A stretch of 64,000 bases of DNA from Candidatus Poribacteria bacterium (lineage in GTDB: Bacteria > Poribacteria > WGA-4E > WGA-3G): NCBI GenBank assembly GCA_965242965.1, contig OZ251518.1, forward strand, positions 1,056,001 to 1,120,000, given 5' to 3'. The position numbers and the translations under genes are program-made. Of this stretch, positions 39,173 through 46,735 are shown one piece after another. The number at the start of each line of letters is the position of its first letter. The stretch's first letter is position 1. The notes under the pieces are model-generated. The model worked only from the letters and a program-made list of their open reading frames with translations, was not told where the DNA came from and ran no database searches.

Positions 39173-39841
39173 GTAGGCGAGACCTCCCGGTCTCAATGTT
39201 CCCGTAGCGCGGGGGGCTGTCCCCCGCGATCGTTCGTCTCAAGATGCCGTCTTAGGTCCTTTAGGACCTACATGTCTATAGAAAAACGTGTTGTGCTGTT
39301 TTCAAGGTCCTTTAGGTCCTTAATAAAACACGCGCGGTGTGTCAAAACCTGTTAAGGACCTAAAGGACCTTAGGGTTCTTCGCAGCCTCACGTGCTATAG
39401 ACATTAAGGTCCTACGGACCTAAAACCGTTTTTTTCATCGTAGGGCGAGGGCCTGTCCCTCGCCAGCGTTCCTGCACGCGCCAGGCCCTGTAGGTCAGGA
39501 TCGCCTGATCCTGACCTGTTTGTGATCAGGCAATCACAAACTACAGAGAGGGGAAAACGAAAAAAAAAGGTATTCCTCGTAGGGCGAGGGCCTGTCCCTC
39601 GCCATGCGTTTTGGTGTCAGAACGCCTCCCCCCTGTAGGTCAAGATCGCCCGATCTTGACCCGTTTGTGATCAGGCGATCACAAACTACAGAGGTGGGCC
39701 CGATGCCTTCGCGGTAGGAGGGACATCCTTGTCCCGATACGAAAAATCGAGACCAGAGGTCTCTCCTACTCCAGCGTTCGCGGGGGACAGGCCCCCGCGC
39801 TACGGTAACCGGCACGGTTTCTTGAGTTATGAAACATCCTC
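39173..39841. repeat. REP-like cluster with AGGTCC/GGACCT element (39252-39422) and TIR-like right end
   Basis: At least five hairpin families; ends GAGTTATGAAACATCCTC. Confidence 0.85.
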
Positions 39842-39881
39842 AGTAAATTATAACACAATTCGCTGAAAATGTCAAAATAGG

Positions 39882-39917: not shown

Positions 39918-42900
39918 ATGCCAACTCTCACCCTCAAACCGACGCATAAATCCATAGTTACCTACTACGATGCCCTGCACCAGTATCGCCGCCACGGTGT
40001 CTCCCACGAAACCGCAGTGCGCGCCGCCTTTCAAGCACTCCTCGAAGCATGCGCCCGGCAACGCGACTGGACGCTCATCTGCGAATATACGCGCCGCCTC
40101 CCCGGCAGCAATGCCATCCGCCTTGACGGCGCACTACTCGACGAACACAGCCTCCCCCGCGGCACGTGGGAAGCGAAAGGCATCAAAGGCACGCTCCGCG
40201 CCGAAATCGATAAGAAATTCGCCGCCGGGTATCCGCAGGACAACATCCTCTTCCAAACGCCAGAACGCGCGATTCTCTACCAAAACGGCGTGGAAGTGCT
40301 GGACGCAGACATCACCGAGGGTGAAACGCTTGTCACCGTGCTGCAGACATTTTTCGCCTACGAACGCGAACATGCCGCCGAATGGGATGCCGCCATCGCT
40401 GAATTTAAGGTGCGCGTGCCAGAACTCGGCCGTGAAGTGGCGGCACTCATCAAGCAGCAACACCAAACCAATGCGCGCTTCCGGACAGCGTTCGCCGATT
40501 TCCATCGTCTCTGCCAAGCCGCCATTCACCCGAACCTCTCCACGGCGGCGGTGGAGGAAATGCTCATCCAGCACCTCTTGACAGAACGCACCTTCCGCAC
40601 CGTTTTCAATACGCCCGACTTCACGCGCCGAAACGTCATCGCGCGGGAGATAGAGAAAGTGATTGACGCACTCGCATCCAAGGCGTTTAGCCGCGGCGTG
40701 TTCCTTCAGAAACTCGACCGGTTTTATCACGTCATTGAACGTGAGGCGGCGACACTCGTGGACTTTTCGCAGAAACAGCATTTTCTGAATACCATCTACG
40801 AGCAGTTTTTTCAGGGGTTCTCCGTGAAACAGGCGGACACGCACGGCATCGTCTACACGCCGCAGCCCATCGTCGATTTCATGGTGAAGAGCGTTGACGC
40901 GCTGCTCAAAACGCAGTTCAATCGTTCCCTCGCCGATGCAGGCGTTCATATCATCGATGCGTTCGTCGGCACCGGCAACTTCATCGTCCGGCTGATGCGC
41001 GAGATACCCAAGACGCAACTTGAACCGAAATACCGCGCCGAGCTCTGGTGCAATGAGGTGCTGTTGTTGCCTTACTACATCGCCTGTCTCAACATCGAAC
41101 ACGAATTTTACGAGGCGACAGGGGAATATCTACCGTTTGAAGGCATCTCCCTCGTGGACACGTTTGAGTTGGCGGAAGAACGGCAGTTATCGCTCTTAAC
41201 GCAAGAAAACACGGCGCGTGTGGAGAAGCAGAAAGCCTCGCCGATGTTTGTCGTCATCGGGAATCCACCGTATAACGTCGGACAGCAGAACGAGAACGAT
41301 AACAACAAAAATCGGCGGTATCCGGCGATGGACAAACGCGTGCAAGAAACCTACGCGAAAGACTCCACCGCCACCAACAAAAACGCGCTCTACGACACCT
41401 ATGTCAAGGCACTCCGTTGGGCTTCCGAGAGGATCGGCGAACAGGGGATTATCGCGCTCGTCACGAATAACAGTTTTCTTGACAGCACCTCGTTTGATGG
41501 CATGCGGAAACACCTCGCTGAGGACTTTGACGAAATCTATGTCGTCGACTTGGGTGGCAATGCGCGGCGTGATAAACTCGTCGCTGATGCGAGCGTTTTT
41601 GGCATCCGCGTCGGCGTGAGTATTAATTTTTTCGTCAAGGGCACGGCGAGGGACAGGCACCAGGGATTACGTAGCGCGGGGGCCTGTCCCCCGCGATCGC
41701 TGCATGGCGAGGAAAATTCCGCCCGCATCTTCTATTACCGCACCGATGACGCGTGGAACAAACACCAGAAATTCGATTTCTTGACGCAAACTGAACACGT
41801 TGGGAACGTAGACTGGCAAACGCTAGAACCCGATGCACGAAATACCTGGCTCACCGAGGGACTCACCCCTGAATTTTTGACGTTCATGCCGATAGGGAGC
41901 AAAGCGGCAAAACGGGAGAAAAAGGAGCCTGCCGGGGTGATATTCCACCAGTTCAGCAACGGTGTGCAAACAAGCCGTGATGCATGGGCTTACAATTTCA
42001 ACCGAGAAACGCTCATCGAAAAGGTGAAAGCCACAAGTGACACTTACAATACGGAGATGCTCCGGTGGCAGAACACCCCCGAAACCGCGCGTTCAAACAT
42101 TGATGACTTTGTGGTAGACGATAACACCAAAATCAAGTGGAGTTCAGGGCTCAAACAGAAATTATTGAGTGGACAACGTGCTGAATTCTCGCCCGAAAAC
42201 ATGCGGCAGGCTCTCTTCCGGCCCTTTACGAAAACGAACTTGTTCTTTGACAACGTCCTCACGCACCGAAGATCCATTTTTCCGGTAACCTTCCCGAATC
42301 TAGAAACCGAAGGGGAGAATCGCGTGTTTTGTGTGAGTTCCGTTGGCGCACTGAAACCGTTTCATGTCTTGATGGTATCCGCGATGCCAGATTACCATTT
42401 AACCGGTGATTCTCAGTGCTTCCCCTTCTACATTTACGATGAAGATGGGACAAACCGCCGCGAAAACATTACCGATTGGGCACTGCAAAACTTCCGTTCG
42501 CACTACGACGACGAAACTATCACGAAGTGGGATATTTTCAACTATACCTACGGCATCCTGCATCATCCCGAGTATCGCGAACGTTACGCCGCCGATTTGA
42601 AGCGAGATCTGCCGCATTTTCCTTACGCCCCTGATTTCTGGGCATTTGCGAATGCCGGTGCAAAACTCGCCGAACTGCACGTCCATTATGAGGCGCAGCC
42701 GGAATATCCACTCACGTTTGTGGAAGATGCGACGAAGCAACTGGATTTCCGCGTCAAGCGGATGAAGTTCTCCAAAGACAAGACATCGCTTATCTATAAC
42801 GAGTTTTTGACGTTGTCGGGGATTCCTGCGGAGGTATTTTCGTATCGCTTGGGGCAGTATTCGGCGTTAGAGTGGGTAGTGAACCAGTATCGTGTGAAGA

Positions 42901-43040
42901 CAGATGCGCGGAGTGGTATTGTGAACGATCCGAATGATGCGGCGAATCCGCGTTATATTGTGGAACTCATCGGTTCGGTGATTACGGTGAGTTTGGAGAC
43001 GTGTAAGATTGTTGAGGAGTTGCCGTCGTTTCGACGGTGA
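39918..43040 (+). CDS. Single-chain restriction-modification enzyme (nuclease + N6-adenine MTase + type ISP-like specificity domain; type IIG/IIL-like)
   Basis: RLDG...WEAK nuclease motif; GIVYTP; motif I DAFVGTGNF; motif IV GNPPY; C-terminal FRPF, YGILH..YRERY, SALEWVV..Y; no helicase motifs. Confidence 0.9.
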   Translation: MPTLTLKPTHKSIVTYYDALHQYRRHGVSHETAVRAAFQALLEACARQRDWTLICEYTRRLPGSNAIRLDGALLDEHSLPRGTWEAKGIKGTLRAEIDKKFAAGYPQDNILFQTPERAILYQNGVEVLDADITEGETLVTVLQTFFAYEREHAAEWDAAIAEFKVRVPELGREVAALIKQQHQTNARFRTAFADFHRLCQAAIHPNLSTAAVEEMLIQHLLTERTFRTVFNTPDFTRRNVIAREIEKVIDALASKAFSRGVFLQKLDRFYHVIEREAATLVDFSQKQHFLNTIYEQFFQGFSVKQADTHGIVYTPQPIVDFMVKSVDALLKTQFNRSLADAGVHIIDAFVGTGNFIVRLMREIPKTQLEPKYRAELWCNEVLLLPYYIACLNIEHEFYEATGEYLPFEGISLVDTFELAEERQLSLLTQENTARVEKQKASPMFVVIGNPPYNVGQQNENDNNKNRRYPAMDKRVQETYAKDSTATNKNALYDTYVKALRWASERIGEQGIIALVTNNSFLDSTSFDGMRKHLAEDFDEIYVVDLGGNARRDKLVADASVFGIRVGVSINFFVKGTARDRHQGLRSAGACPPRSLHGEENSARIFYYRTDDAWNKHQKFDFLTQTEHVGNVDWQTLEPDARNTWLTEGLTPEFLTFMPIGSKAAKREKKEPAGVIFHQFSNGVQTSRDAWAYNFNRETLIEKVKATSDTYNTEMLRWQNTPETARSNIDDFVVDDNTKIKWSSGLKQKLLSGQRAEFSPENMRQALFRPFTKTNLFFDNVLTHRRSIFPVTFPNLETEGENRVFCVSSVGALKPFHVLMVSAMPDYHLTGDSQCFPFYIYDEDGTNRRENITDWALQNFRSHYDDETITKWDIFNYTYGILHHPEYRERYAADLKRDLPHFPYAPDFWAFANAGAKLAELHVHYEAQPEYPLTFVEDATKQLDFRVKRMKFSKDKTSLIYNEFLTLSGIPAEVFSYRLGQYSALEWVVNQYRVKTDARSGIVNDPNDAANPRYIVELIGSVITVSLETCKIVEELPSFRR

Positions 43041-46138: not shown

Positions 46139-46165
46139 GTGCTGCTGCTGTATATTTCGCGCACC

Positions 46166-46608
46166 GTAGCGCGGGGGCCTGTCCCCCACGGATATCTCGC
46201 GCATCGTAGCGCGGGGGCCTGTCCCCCGCGATCGTTGGAGTGCGCGAGCACTGGCGAGGGACAGGCCCTCGCCCTACGGTAAAGGGACGGCTTTTCTCCG
46301 CCCGTAGCGCGGGGGCCTGTCCCCCACGATTGTTCGGTAGACCGAGGCATGGCGAGGGACAGGCCCTCGCCCTACGGTGAAACGGAGACGGCCTCCCCAA
46401 CCGTAGCGCGGGGGCCTGTCCCCCGCGATCGTTGAATTGCGCGAGCGATGGCGAGGGGGGGTGACGTTTTTTCATCGTAGCGCGGGGGCCTGTCCCCCGC
46501 GATCGTTGGAGTGCGCGAGCACTGGCGAGGGAAACCCGCTCGCATGCGCGTGTGGCATGCGAGGGCCCAAGCCCTACGGTAAAGGGACGGCTTTTCTCCG
46601 CCCGTAGC
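46166..46608. repeat. REP-like cluster upstream of tRNA-Gly
   Basis: About eight GTAG hairpins in alternating orientation. Confidence 0.85.
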
Positions 46609-46663: not shown

Positions 46664-46735
46664 GCGGGTGTAGCTCAGCGGTAGAGCGTCAGCTTCCCAA
46701 GCTGAGGGTCGCGGGTTCAATTCCCGTCACCCGCT
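46664..46735 (+). tRNA. tRNA-Gly (CCC)
   Basis: GCGGGTG/CACCCGC acceptor stem; anticodon arm TCAGC-TTCCCAA-GCTGA; T-loop GTTCAATTC; CCA not encoded. Confidence 0.97.

What the first reader, a model, noticed from the sequence alone, without database searches (positions are those of the whole stretch)
41645..41712. Intact REP hairpin inserted in-frame inside the restriction-modification gene
Seen: a perfect GTAGCGCGGGGGCCTGTCCCCCGCGATCGC (41671-41700), flanked by fragments of the partner REP (GGCGAGGGACAGGC; ATGGCGAGG), is translated as ARDRHQGLRSAGACPPRSLHGE between INFFVK and ARIFYY. The 1040-aa frame stays open. Inference: a recent insertion trimmed to keep frame in a surface loop near the MTase/specificity boundary, evidence that these repeats are mobile and can enter coding DNA.
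Basis: partly seen in the sequence, partly recalled or inferred. Interest (0 to 1): 0.7.

Follow-up and report, generated by a model that had tools for sequence, protein, structure and literature searches.

The report
REP hairpin inside a restriction-enzyme loop
A copy of this sponge-symbiont genome's commonest selfish hairpin repeat is read in frame as a floppy turn of an apparently intact restriction-modification enzyme; this is a known kind of event, and here the repeat was most likely copied in from a sister gene and did not jump in freshly.

Summary
41671-41700 is an exact GTAG-headed REP hairpin ("A"). A truncated partner REP ("B") precedes it and a B head follows it. All are read in frame in the 1040-aa ORF 39918-43040.

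The gene is a DrdV-type Type IIL restriction-modification enzyme (PDB 7lo5, E 5e-191), one of 22 paralogs in the genome. The repeat lengthens a beta-hairpin turn of the methyltransferase domain from the family's modal 11 aa to 30 aa.

The "recent trimmed insertion" reading is only partly right:
- Eight homolog clusters share the same peptide and junctions.
- Those clusters are orthologs of another paralog of this genome (C1:420151-423489).
- The roughly 0.5 kb around the loop is 88-98% identical in DNA to that paralog. The rest of the gene is 93-100% identical in protein to a different homolog group that carries other loops.

So the hairpin most likely came in by gene conversion between paralogs.

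The turn is a REP nest. Eight of nine close paralogs carry REP-derived loops of 22-134 aa. Hairpin A is read there in four of its five open reading modes, and one paralog is frameshifted at this turn.

This scan found the same phenomenon before, in a paralog of this genome and in other genomes. Intragenic REPs are in print (PMC3733652). I rate it a new member of a known kind.

The parts
39918..43040 (+). [quoted passage not shown]
   Evidence: Pfam Type_ISP_C 9e-101, ISP_coupler, N6_Mtase, Eco57I. PDB 7lo5 DrdV E 5e-191 over residues 27-1037.
40125..40178 (+). Nuclease motif residues D70 ... E85-x-K87
   Evidence: Invariant columns in alignment A1 of 69 homologs. They align to DrdV's N-terminal nuclease region. 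Reading them as a PD-(D/E)xK motif is from recall.
41262..41273 (+). MTase motif IV NPPY (N449-Y452)
   Evidence: Invariant in A1.
41637..41726 (+). Turn K574-R603 (30 aa, 90 nt) between predicted strands 567-574 and 603-608; family mode is 11 aa
41645..41670 (+). Decayed REP B (B'): intact left arm and loop GGCGAGGGACAGGC, then a private 12-nt tail ending TTAC in place of CCTCGCCCTAC; read as (A)RDRHQGL
   Evidence: the 21-mer across the break is unique in the genome.
41671..41700 (+). Intact GTAG-headed REP A hairpin (stem CGCGGGGG / CCCCCGCG, loop CCTGT); read in codon phase 2 as RSAGACPPRS
41702..41712 (+). Head of a second REP B (GCATGGCGAGG), truncated and fused to the native end of the turn (G-E-E-N-S-A-R)
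   Evidence: The junction ATGGCGAGGAAAATTC occurs in 3 paralogs.
41388..41957 (+). Segment sharing its history with paralog C1:420151-423489 (gene-conversion tract). DNA identity to that paralog is 88-93% upstream of the loop, 67-70% in the loop and 95-98% downstream, against about 80% before and 50-60% after the tract

Best explanation
The 66-nt stretch is a degenerate REP doublet: a truncated B, an intact A and a B head. Both belong to the genome's two most abundant GTAG-headed REP families. It sits as passenger DNA in a solvent-exposed beta-hairpin turn of the methyltransferase domain of a DrdV-type Type IIL restriction-modification enzyme.

The protein tolerates almost any peptide at this turn. 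Selection filters only for a total length divisible by three and for the absence of stop codons. The peptide RSAGACPPRS has no function of its own.

The doublet was not inserted into this gene by a fresh transposition. It was already present in the lineage of another paralog (today at C1:420151-423489, whose orthologs in other assemblies still carry it). It was copied into this gene with about 0.5 kb of flanking coding DNA by homologous recombination (gene conversion) between paralogs.

The turn behaves as a REP nest in the whole subfamily. Once seeded, it turns over quickly through further REP gain, loss and exchange.

Shown: the anatomy, the shared peptide, the mosaic history and the multiple reading modes. 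Inferred: neutrality of the peptide, the direction of the conversion and the enzyme's activity.
For: Element and gene:
- REP identity and abundance. The cores have 1935 (A) and 2100 (B) exact copies.
- REPs are rare in long ORFs. 36 of 2226 A copies and 46 of 2368 B copies have at least 150 aa of open frame on both sides, against 1176 of 4000 random sites.
- Gene family: (DrdV, E 5e-191). Catalytic motifs are invariant.
- Turn: modal length 11 aa in 72 of 102 loci. The AF2 model gives strands 567-574 and 603-608 with residues 577-600 below pLDDT 50.

The peptide is not selected:
- At this same turn the own paralogs read hairpin A as VARGPVPR (6 paralogs), SAGACPP (this gene), AGDRPPRY and RGTGPRA (paralog at 420 kb). 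That is 4 of the 5 stop-free reading modes.
- Homologs also carry at least three further REP families here (sources read).

The frame filter is visible:
- The split paralog C1:4435205-4438650 has the same 3' junction, with A in phase 0 plus 8 nt, which puts it out of frame. This gene has A in phase 2 plus the same 8 nt, which keeps it in frame.
- Genome-wide spacing of A copies shows no 3-periodicity (185/169/166).

The insert is not private:
- P0002, 3, 5-10 share the peptide and junctions.

The gene is a mosaic:
- Residues 1-525 and 691-1040 are 93-100% identical to P0013, 12, 11, 16 and 4, which carry other loops.
- Residues 526-675 are 90-100% identical to P0002, 3, 5, 6, 8 and 10.
- Trees: P0001 is sister to P0013 in the two outer segments (support 0.965 and 0.926). 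It sits with all 8 X-group proteins and 0 Y-group proteins in the middle segment with the loop excluded (support 0.87).
- The X group are orthologs of the own paralog at 420 kb (90-100% in most windows of residues 1-780).
- DNA identity to that paralog is 91% and 97% in the 240 nt on either side of the loop. The other 19 paralog pairs, leaving out one pair of recent duplicates, give 70-81%.
Against: - I had no DNA for the X or Y homologs, only proteins. The direction and age of the conversion therefore rest on protein identity, trees and one paralog's DNA.
- The paralog at 420 kb in this genome no longer carries this loop, so the donor state is inferred from its orthologs elsewhere.
- Identity to that paralog is higher downstream (95-98%) than upstream (88-93%) of the loop. 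More than one event is possible.
- Every in-gene A copy is a perfect 25-mer. This could reflect selection on the hairpin or continuing homogenisation, not pure neutrality.
- The AF2 model is only moderate (mean pLDDT 66, pTM 0.58) and has other low-confidence stretches, so low pLDDT in the turn is weak evidence of disorder.
- Enzyme activity and expression are untested.
Confidence: 0.8

Rival explanations
1. Fresh transposition: a REP unit recently moved into this gene in this lineage, by a RAYT-type transposase or otherwise, and was trimmed to keep the frame.
For: - REP A is amplifying in this lineage: 1850 copies here against 263 and 104 in the two same-genus genomes and 0-1 in 18 other relatives.
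- The closest backbone relatives (P0013, P0011-16, P0004) have other loop contents, so the loop differs between close strains.
- 11-nt direct repeats GCAYGGCGAGG flank the unit.
- A RAYT gene exists in the genome (NF047646, 117 bits against a cut-off of 80).
Against: - The same peptide and junctions occur in 8 homolog clusters that are only 50-90% identical elsewhere.
- The flanking coding DNA travels with the loop.
- The left B copy is a unique decayed form, not an active family member.
- The direct repeats are REP B heads (1016 copies), not a target duplication.
- The only intact RAYT is flanked by a different GTAG family, and no A or B copy lies within 1.5 kb of it.
Confidence: 0.07
2. Functional element: the REP nest is used by the cell. 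It could act as an ON/OFF switch of restriction genes through repeat-number changes that shift the frame, as a recombination boundary or cassette for shuffling segments between paralogs, or as an mRNA hairpin that tunes expression.
For: - Eight of 9 close paralogs carry REPs at exactly this turn, and one of them is frameshifted there.
- Identity to the 420-kb paralog steps from 91% to 97% across the loop.
- The two paralogs appear to have exchanged loop types relative to sister strains.
- All in-gene A copies are perfect.
- The RNA fold of 41630-41725 has a free energy of -43.1 kcal/mol.
Against: - The conversion tract's outer ends lie about 250 nt from the loop on both sides, not in the REP.
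- A heterologous loop would stop heteroduplex extension without having any function.
- The z-score of the fold is only -2.14, and 4 of 200 shuffles fold as well.
- 87% of all near-consensus A cores in the genome are exact (1935 of 2226), so perfection is not special to genes.
- 33 of 37 other REP-holding ORFs scanned carry Pfam domains of unrelated families. That fits random entry plus tolerance.
- No length polymorphism of this gene's loop could be shown.
Confidence: 0.1
3. No insertion: a native long loop whose DNA happens to resemble the repeat.
For: Even the 11-aa 'empty' loop KRGEGQREPAR of same-genus homologs contains 12 nt of the B head (GGCGAGGGACAG). The native loop and REP B are therefore not cleanly separable.
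Against: - There is a 30-nt exact match to a family with 191 identical copies, and no shuffle gave any match.
- The modal family loop is 11 aa, with unrelated hydrophilic sequences in other genera.
Confidence: 0.01

Closest known systems
Intragenic GTAG- and CGTC-tagged REPs (Di Nocera, De Gregorio and Rocco 2013, BMC Genomics 14:522, PMC3733652; passages read, Additional file 3 searched)
   Same: - GTAG-headed GC-rich palindromes, mostly intergenic, with some found in frame inside genes.
- Dimers encode 20-30 aa and clusters 43-82 aa.
- Different REPs lie at about the same site in recB of two Xanthomonas species.
- An N-6 DNA methylase (O. terrae Oter_3011) is on their list.
- The authors also suggest neutral inserts in flexible linkers or loops.
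   Different: - Here one turn of one enzyme family is hit again and again: 96 of the 120 best homologs have a turn longer than 13 aa, up to 135 aa.
- The same hairpin is read in four reading modes.
- This copy reached its gene by conversion between paralogs.
- None of these three points appears in the passages I read.
Rickettsia palindromic elements (RPE) in protein-coding genes (Ogata et al. 2000, recalled; named in the Di Nocera passages as RPE-1, -4 and -6)
   Same: Selfish palindromic repeats inserted in frame and translated in otherwise functional proteins.
   Different: RPE-1 is longer (about 100-150 nt, recalled) and belongs to an obligate intracellular alphaproteobacterium. The elements here are 25-30-nt GTAG REPs in doublets and arrays in a sponge symbiont.
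REPIN / BIME doublets with RAYT transposases (Bertels and Rainey 2011, PMC3116915; Nunvar et al. 2010; both recalled, not read here)
   Same: Two inverted REPs (A and B are near reverse complements, 2 mismatches in the 19-nt core), thousands of copies, tandem clusters, and a RAYT gene in the genome flanked by GTAG REPs.
   Different: The RAYT found is flanked by another GTAG family, so no cognate transposase is shown for A and B. In the gene, one partner is truncated.
[quoted passage not shown]
   Same: Same architecture and full-length alignment (E 5e-191). The turn corresponds to about DrdV 577-589, just after F562 and K567, which contact the flipped adenine.
   Different: DrdV has a short turn. 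Here it is 17 aa longer and made of REP DNA. This genome holds 22 paralogs.

Membership tests
GTAG-tagged REP | Short GC-rich palindrome with a GTAG tetranucleotide at one end | tested here: met
   GTAG + CGCGGGGG CCTGT CCCCCGCG at 41671-41695.
GTAG-tagged REP | High copy number, predominantly extragenic | tested here: met
   1552 exact 25-mers. Only 1.6% of A and 1.9% of B copies lie deep in long open frames, against 29% of random sites.
REPIN / BIME | Two REPs in inverted orientation forming a unit, often in tandem clusters | tested here: met
   A and B alternate in inverted orientation at 46140-46600 and 39180-39800. This was not quantified genome-wide. The in-gene unit has one truncated partner.
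REPIN / REPtron | Cognate RAYT gene flanked by the same REP family | tested here: inconclusive
   One intact RAYT (NF047646, 117.3 bits, cut-off 80) is flanked on both sides by a different GTAG family. No A or B copy with up to 3 mismatches lies within 1.5 kb. A second Y1_Tnp hit has 2 TGA stops.
Mobile element (this copy) | Filled versus empty site in otherwise identical flanks | tested here: inconclusive
   Read laying on 4 runs gave only short contigs. No empty-site joint was among the 15 joints shown, and 69 were not shown. Two metagenome scans found no close relative.
DrdV-type Type IIL RM enzyme | Single chain: N-terminal nuclease, connector, gamma-class N6A MTase with NPPY, C-terminal TRD | tested here: met
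   D70, E85, K87, the G351-x-G353 motif and N449-Y452 are invariant.
DrdV-type Type IIL RM enzyme | Methylation and cleavage activity | not testable with these tools
   No methylome or biochemistry is available. No RNA holder was listed.
Type ISP (LlaGI / LlaBIII) | RecA-like ATPase/translocase domain between the nuclease and the MTase | tested here: not met
   P0001 aligns only to LlaGI 585-1403 and LlaBIII 749-1575. There is no helicase Pfam hit and the length is 1040 aa.

The most novel reading that the evidence does not exclude
The REP nest in this turn is more than a passenger. It may act as a shared, portable junction that lets the roughly nine close paralogs of this restriction enzyme exchange the segment next to the target-recognition domain. 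Through repeat gain and loss it may also switch copies off and on. Hints are the frameshifted paralog, the step in identity across the loop, and the apparent swap of loop types between two paralogs. This would be a repeat-driven way to diversify or phase-vary a large restriction-enzyme repertoire in sponge symbionts.
Probability: 0.1. Interest if true: 0.6.

Novelty: new member of a known kind. Interest (0 to 1): 0.3.

Why it matters
This locus is a clean natural experiment on how much foreign sequence a protein turn can absorb. The same 25-nt hairpin is translated in four different ways at one position of one enzyme family, and a frameshifted sibling serves as the negative control.

It also shows that a repeat found inside a gene need not mark a transposition event there. 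Recombination between paralogs can move it together with its flanks. That matters when intragenic repeats are used to infer repeat mobility or to date insertions.

For sponge-symbiont biology it adds detail to the known enrichment of restriction systems: 22 DrdV-type paralogs in one genome, evolving as mosaics.

Tried and rejected
- Cyanobacterial HIP1 idea. GCGATCGC at the hairpin's end suggested a cyanobacterium. I dropped this: there are only 391 copies in 5.7 Mb, and the relatives are sponge-associated MAGs titled Poribacteria, Latescibacterota and Caldilineaceae.
- DNA of the homologs that share the peptide. An exact junction pattern in metagenome contigs gave 0 hits. The search for related loci with the 171-aa tract gave 18 loci, the best at 54%. 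The species-representative genomes of the same genus carry other loops. Synonymous-site dating was therefore not possible.
- Reads. 15 holders in 8 studies, all Logan contigs; no RNA holder listed. The contigs laid were short. An exact contig stops at 41645, and two diverged contigs bridge the 5' junction (41493-41689, 25 differences, 2 gaps) and the 3' junction (41679-41813, 13 differences). No empty-site joint was listed. This neither supports nor refutes polymorphism.
- Near-identical whole donor in the same genome. None was found; the best long match is about 80%.
- RAYT next to A or B REPs. Not found.
- REP as the crossover point of the conversion. The outer tract ends are about 250 nt away on both sides. 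Only the inner step in identity coincides with the loop.
- Structure prediction was not accepted and was run later. The model is of moderate quality.
- No structure search and no complex prediction were run, because the sequence match to DrdV made them unnecessary.
Full report
**1. Observation**

The window reads GTAGCGCGGGGGCCTGTCCCCCGCGATCGC at 41671-41700. With up to 3 mismatches this 30-mer has 26 copies in the 64-kb window. None of 100 dinucleotide-preserving shuffles gave any match.

The window lies at C1:1056001-1120000 of a genome of 5.70 Mb. In that genome:
- The 25-nt GTAG-plus-stem part ("A") has 1552 exact copies, and the 30-mer has 191.
- The 19-nt cores of A and of its near reverse-complement partner "B" have 1935 and 2100 exact copies.

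- GGCGAGGGACAGGC (41645-41658) is the first 14 nt of B (1703 copies).
- GCATGGCGAGG (41702-41712) is B's standard head (1016 copies).
- The 21-mer running on from the left piece is unique in the genome, so that B copy is a private, decayed one.

The ORF 39918-43040 is open for 1040 aa and reads ...INFFVK GTARDRHQGLRSAGACPPRSLHGEENSAR IFYY....

**2. The gene**

Pfam finds Type_ISP_C (9e-101), ISP_coupler, N6_Mtase and Eco57I. Against solved structures the best match is DrdV (7lo5). It aligns over residues 27-1037 with E 5e-191. LlaGI and LlaBIII match only from their coupler onward. [quoted passage not shown]

D70, E85, K87, the G-x-G motif and NPPY are invariant among 69 aligned homologs. The gene looks intact. 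Activity was not tested.

A profile search of all six-frame ORFs of the genome finds 23 ORFs scoring above 700 bits, that is 21 intact genes plus one gene split in two. It also finds 6 distant relatives. The related genomes that the search for related loci returned are sponge-associated MAGs titled Poribacteria, Latescibacterota and Caldilineaceae. Runs holding the stretch include ones labelled sponge metagenome. Earlier notes of this scan call the genome Poribacteria; I did not test the phylum.

**3. Where the repeat sits**

I parsed the stretch between the conserved V573 and I604 in 102 of 118 related loci. It is 11 aa in 72 of them, 9-13 aa in 83 and longer than 13 aa in 19. Here it is 30 aa. 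In the DrdV alignment 17 residues have no partner.

DrdV's authors put the MTase domain at 295-635 and the TRD at 636-1029. They name F562 and K567 as residues at the flipped adenine (passages). The turn aligns to about DrdV 577-589. That places it in the C-terminal part of the MTase domain, about 45 residues before the TRD.

An AlphaFold2 model built with the 69-sequence alignment has mean pLDDT 66 and pTM 0.58. It places strands at 567-574 and 603-608, and residues 577-600 fall below pLDDT 50 (10-residue block means 26 and 31). This fits a loop bulging out of a beta-hairpin turn. The model has other weak stretches, so this evidence is soft.

**4. The turn is a REP nest**

Nine paralogs of this genome score above 1800 bits. 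Eight of them, counting this gene and the split one, carry REP-derived turns of 22 to 134 aa. The ninth has an 11-aa turn without REP. Of the 13 lower-scoring paralogs, the 8 that my pattern parsed have short REP-free turns and 5 were not parsed. None of the 13 appears among the ORFs with embedded A or B cores.

At the DNA level every in-gene A copy is a perfect 25-mer. Hairpin A has five stop-free reading modes; the sixth begins with TAG. Four of the five occur at this turn in the own paralogs:
- VARGPVPR in six paralogs.
- SAGACPP in this gene only.
- AGDRPPRY and RGTGPRA in the paralog at 420 kb.

Among the 120 best homologs from the protein search:
- Turn length is at most 13 aa in 24, 14-30 aa in 53 and more than 30 aa in 43, up to 135 aa.
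- 78 carry at least one of eight REP peptide signatures. SAGACPP occurs in 21, ARGPVPR in 20 and the B-derived ARDR(P/F)S(P/R) in 34. The remaining signatures come from three further repeat families whose DNA can be read in this window.

The split paralog is an instructive control. It shares this gene's 3' junction (ATGGCGAGGAAAATTC, 3 copies in the genome). It has A in phase 0 followed by the same 8 nt, which shifts the frame. Here A is in phase 2, so the total stays in frame. Genome-wide, the spacing of neighbouring A copies has no 3-nt periodicity (185/169/166 of 520 pairs). The in-frame state of genic arrays therefore reflects filtering, not a property of the repeats.

**5. REPs inside genes in general**

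REPs are strongly depleted from long open frames. 36 of 2226 A copies and 46 of 2368 B copies have at least 150 aa of open frame on both sides, against 1176 of 4000 random sites. They are not absent, however: 44 ORFs hold such copies.

Seven of the 44 are paralogs of this gene. I scanned the other 37 against Pfam, and 33 have a hit at E <= 1e-5. The hits include a PLP enzyme, URO-D, a class I/II aminotransferase, a PfkB kinase, a class I tRNA synthetase, a UvrD-RNase T helicase, a PBP and a histidine kinase.

For PALP, URO-D, Aminotran_1_2, PfkB and DAGK_cat the Pfam match is in two stretches. For the first four, the end of the best stretch abuts the REP position. An open frame on both sides does not prove for every ORF that the REP is inside the true coding sequence.

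**6. This copy was not a fresh insertion here**

P0002, 3 and 5-10 carry ARDR(H/D/S)QGLRSAGACPPRS with the same junctions.

A sliding-window comparison shows that P0001 is a mosaic:
- Residues 1 to about 525 and 691-1040 are 93-100% identical to P0013, 12, 11, 16 and 4 (group Y). Those proteins carry other loop contents.
- Residues 526-675 are 90-100% identical to P0002, 3, 5, 6, 8 and 10 (group X). Group X is only 50-90% identical in the N-terminal part and 30-50% identical in 690-830.

Segment trees agree. In 1-520 and 691-1040, P0001 is sister to P0013 (support 0.965 and 0.926) inside a Y clade with no X member. In 526-574 plus 604-680, with the loop left out, it sits in a clade with all 8 X and no Y (support 0.87).

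Group X turns out to be the orthologs of this genome's own paralog at C1:420151-423489. P0002 is 90-100% identical to it in most windows of residues 1-780.

DNA identity between this gene and that paralog changes along the gene:

| Region | Identity |
|---|---|
| Up to 41360 | about 80% |
| 41388-41627 | 88-93% |
| Inside the loop | 67-70% |
| 41718-41957 | 95-98% |
| Beyond 41990 | 50-60% |

Among 21 pairs of 7 paralogs, this pair has 91% and 97% in the 240 nt on either side of the loop. Apart from one pair of recent duplicates, the other pairs have 70-81%.

The simplest reading is gene conversion between the two paralogs that carried the loop along. In this genome the 420-kb paralog now has a different loop with two reverse A copies. 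That loop matches the loop of P0013 at 31 of 36 residues. Relative to sister strains, the two paralogs therefore look as if they had exchanged loops.

I could not get DNA for X or Y homologs. Direction and dating are inferred. The unequal identity on the two sides of the loop allows for more than one event.

**7. What moves the repeats**

REP A is confined to the genus among the 21 genomes searched. It has 1850 copies here, 263 and 104 in the two same-genus genomes, 1 in one other genome and 0 in 17. The family has therefore amplified recently in this lineage.

One intact REP-associated tyrosine transposase is present (NF047646, 117 bits, cut-off 80). It is flanked on both sides by a different GTAG family, and no A or B copy lies within 1.5 kb. 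A cognate transposase for A and B is therefore not shown.

The 11-aa "empty" turn KRGEGQREPAR of same-genus homologs already contains 12 nt of the B head. This hints that the site was seeded long ago, or that microhomology helps REP DNA to be captured there. That point is inference.

**8. Reads**

Fifteen runs in 8 studies hold part of the stretch, all as contigs, and no RNA holder was listed. In four runs the contigs are short. One exact contig ends at 41645. Two diverged contigs bridge the 5' and the 3' junction. No joint that would mark an empty site was among those listed. This is inconclusive.

**9. Comparison and verdict**

Intragenic GTAG REPs are in print. Di Nocera et al. 2013 report dimers encoding 20-30 aa and clusters encoding 43-82 aa. 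They also report different REPs at about the same site of recB in two Xanthomonas species, an N-6 DNA methylase among the hosts, and the idea of neutral inserts in loops. Rickettsia RPEs are the classical case (recalled, and named in those passages).

This scan has already reported the same phenomenon in the 420-kb paralog of this genome (e1-782088, e1-782089). It has also reported it in restriction genes of other genomes.

What this report adds:
- The loop-bearing segment reached this gene by recombination between paralogs.
- One hairpin is read in four modes at one turn.
- A frameshifted sibling shows the frame filter at work.

I rate it a new member of a known kind, of modest interest.

Noticed in passing
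genome G000, C1 (list); this window holds one copy at 39918-43040: Twenty-two DrdV-type Type IIL restriction-modification paralogs (21 intact, 1 split) plus 6 distant relatives in one 5.7-Mb genome. A related genus genome (G004) gave 25 matches. The paralogs are mosaics of each other.
   Followed up: partly
G000 C1:4435205-4437508 and 4437250-4438650 (outside the window): A paralog split into two ORFs by a frameshift exactly at the REP turn. It shares this gene's 3' junction, but hairpin A is in another codon phase.
   Followed up: partly
G000 C1:420151-423489 versus window 41637-41726: Relative to their closest homologs in other assemblies (P0002 type and P0013 type), these two paralogs appear to have swapped loop contents.
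   Followed up: partly
L131 and L132 (G001 C93, C207), turn DNA AAGCGCGGCGAGGGACAGCGCGAACCGGCGCGC: The 11-aa 'empty' turn of same-genus homologs contains 12 nt identical to the head of REP B. Truly REP-free turns are seen only in more distant homologs.
   Followed up: no
G000 C1:3147502-3148611 (L112:1420-2529, minus strand): A RAYT gene (NF047646) flanked on both sides by arrays of another GTAG REP family (GTAGTTCGGGAGCRCCYGCTCCCGA). The open frame runs 370 aa because the upstream repeats are stop-free.
   Followed up: partly
G000 C1:1052465-1055707 (just before the window) and 36 other ORFs: Other genes carry REP A or B deep inside the open frame, for example a UvrD-RNase T helicase, a class I tRNA synthetase, URO-D, an aminotransferase and a PfkB kinase. 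33 of the 37 scanned have Pfam hits. In several, the domain match is split at the REP.
   Followed up: partly
window 46664-46735: tRNA-Gly(CCC) sits directly after a 450-nt array of alternating A and B REPs and is followed by another B copy.
   Followed up: no
window 39847-39875, minus strand: A perfect sigma-70-like site (TTGACA, 17 nt, TG-TATAAT; 12 of 12) points away from the restriction gene into the repeat-filled spacer 39200-39850. That spacer also holds several other palindromic repeat families.
   Followed up: no
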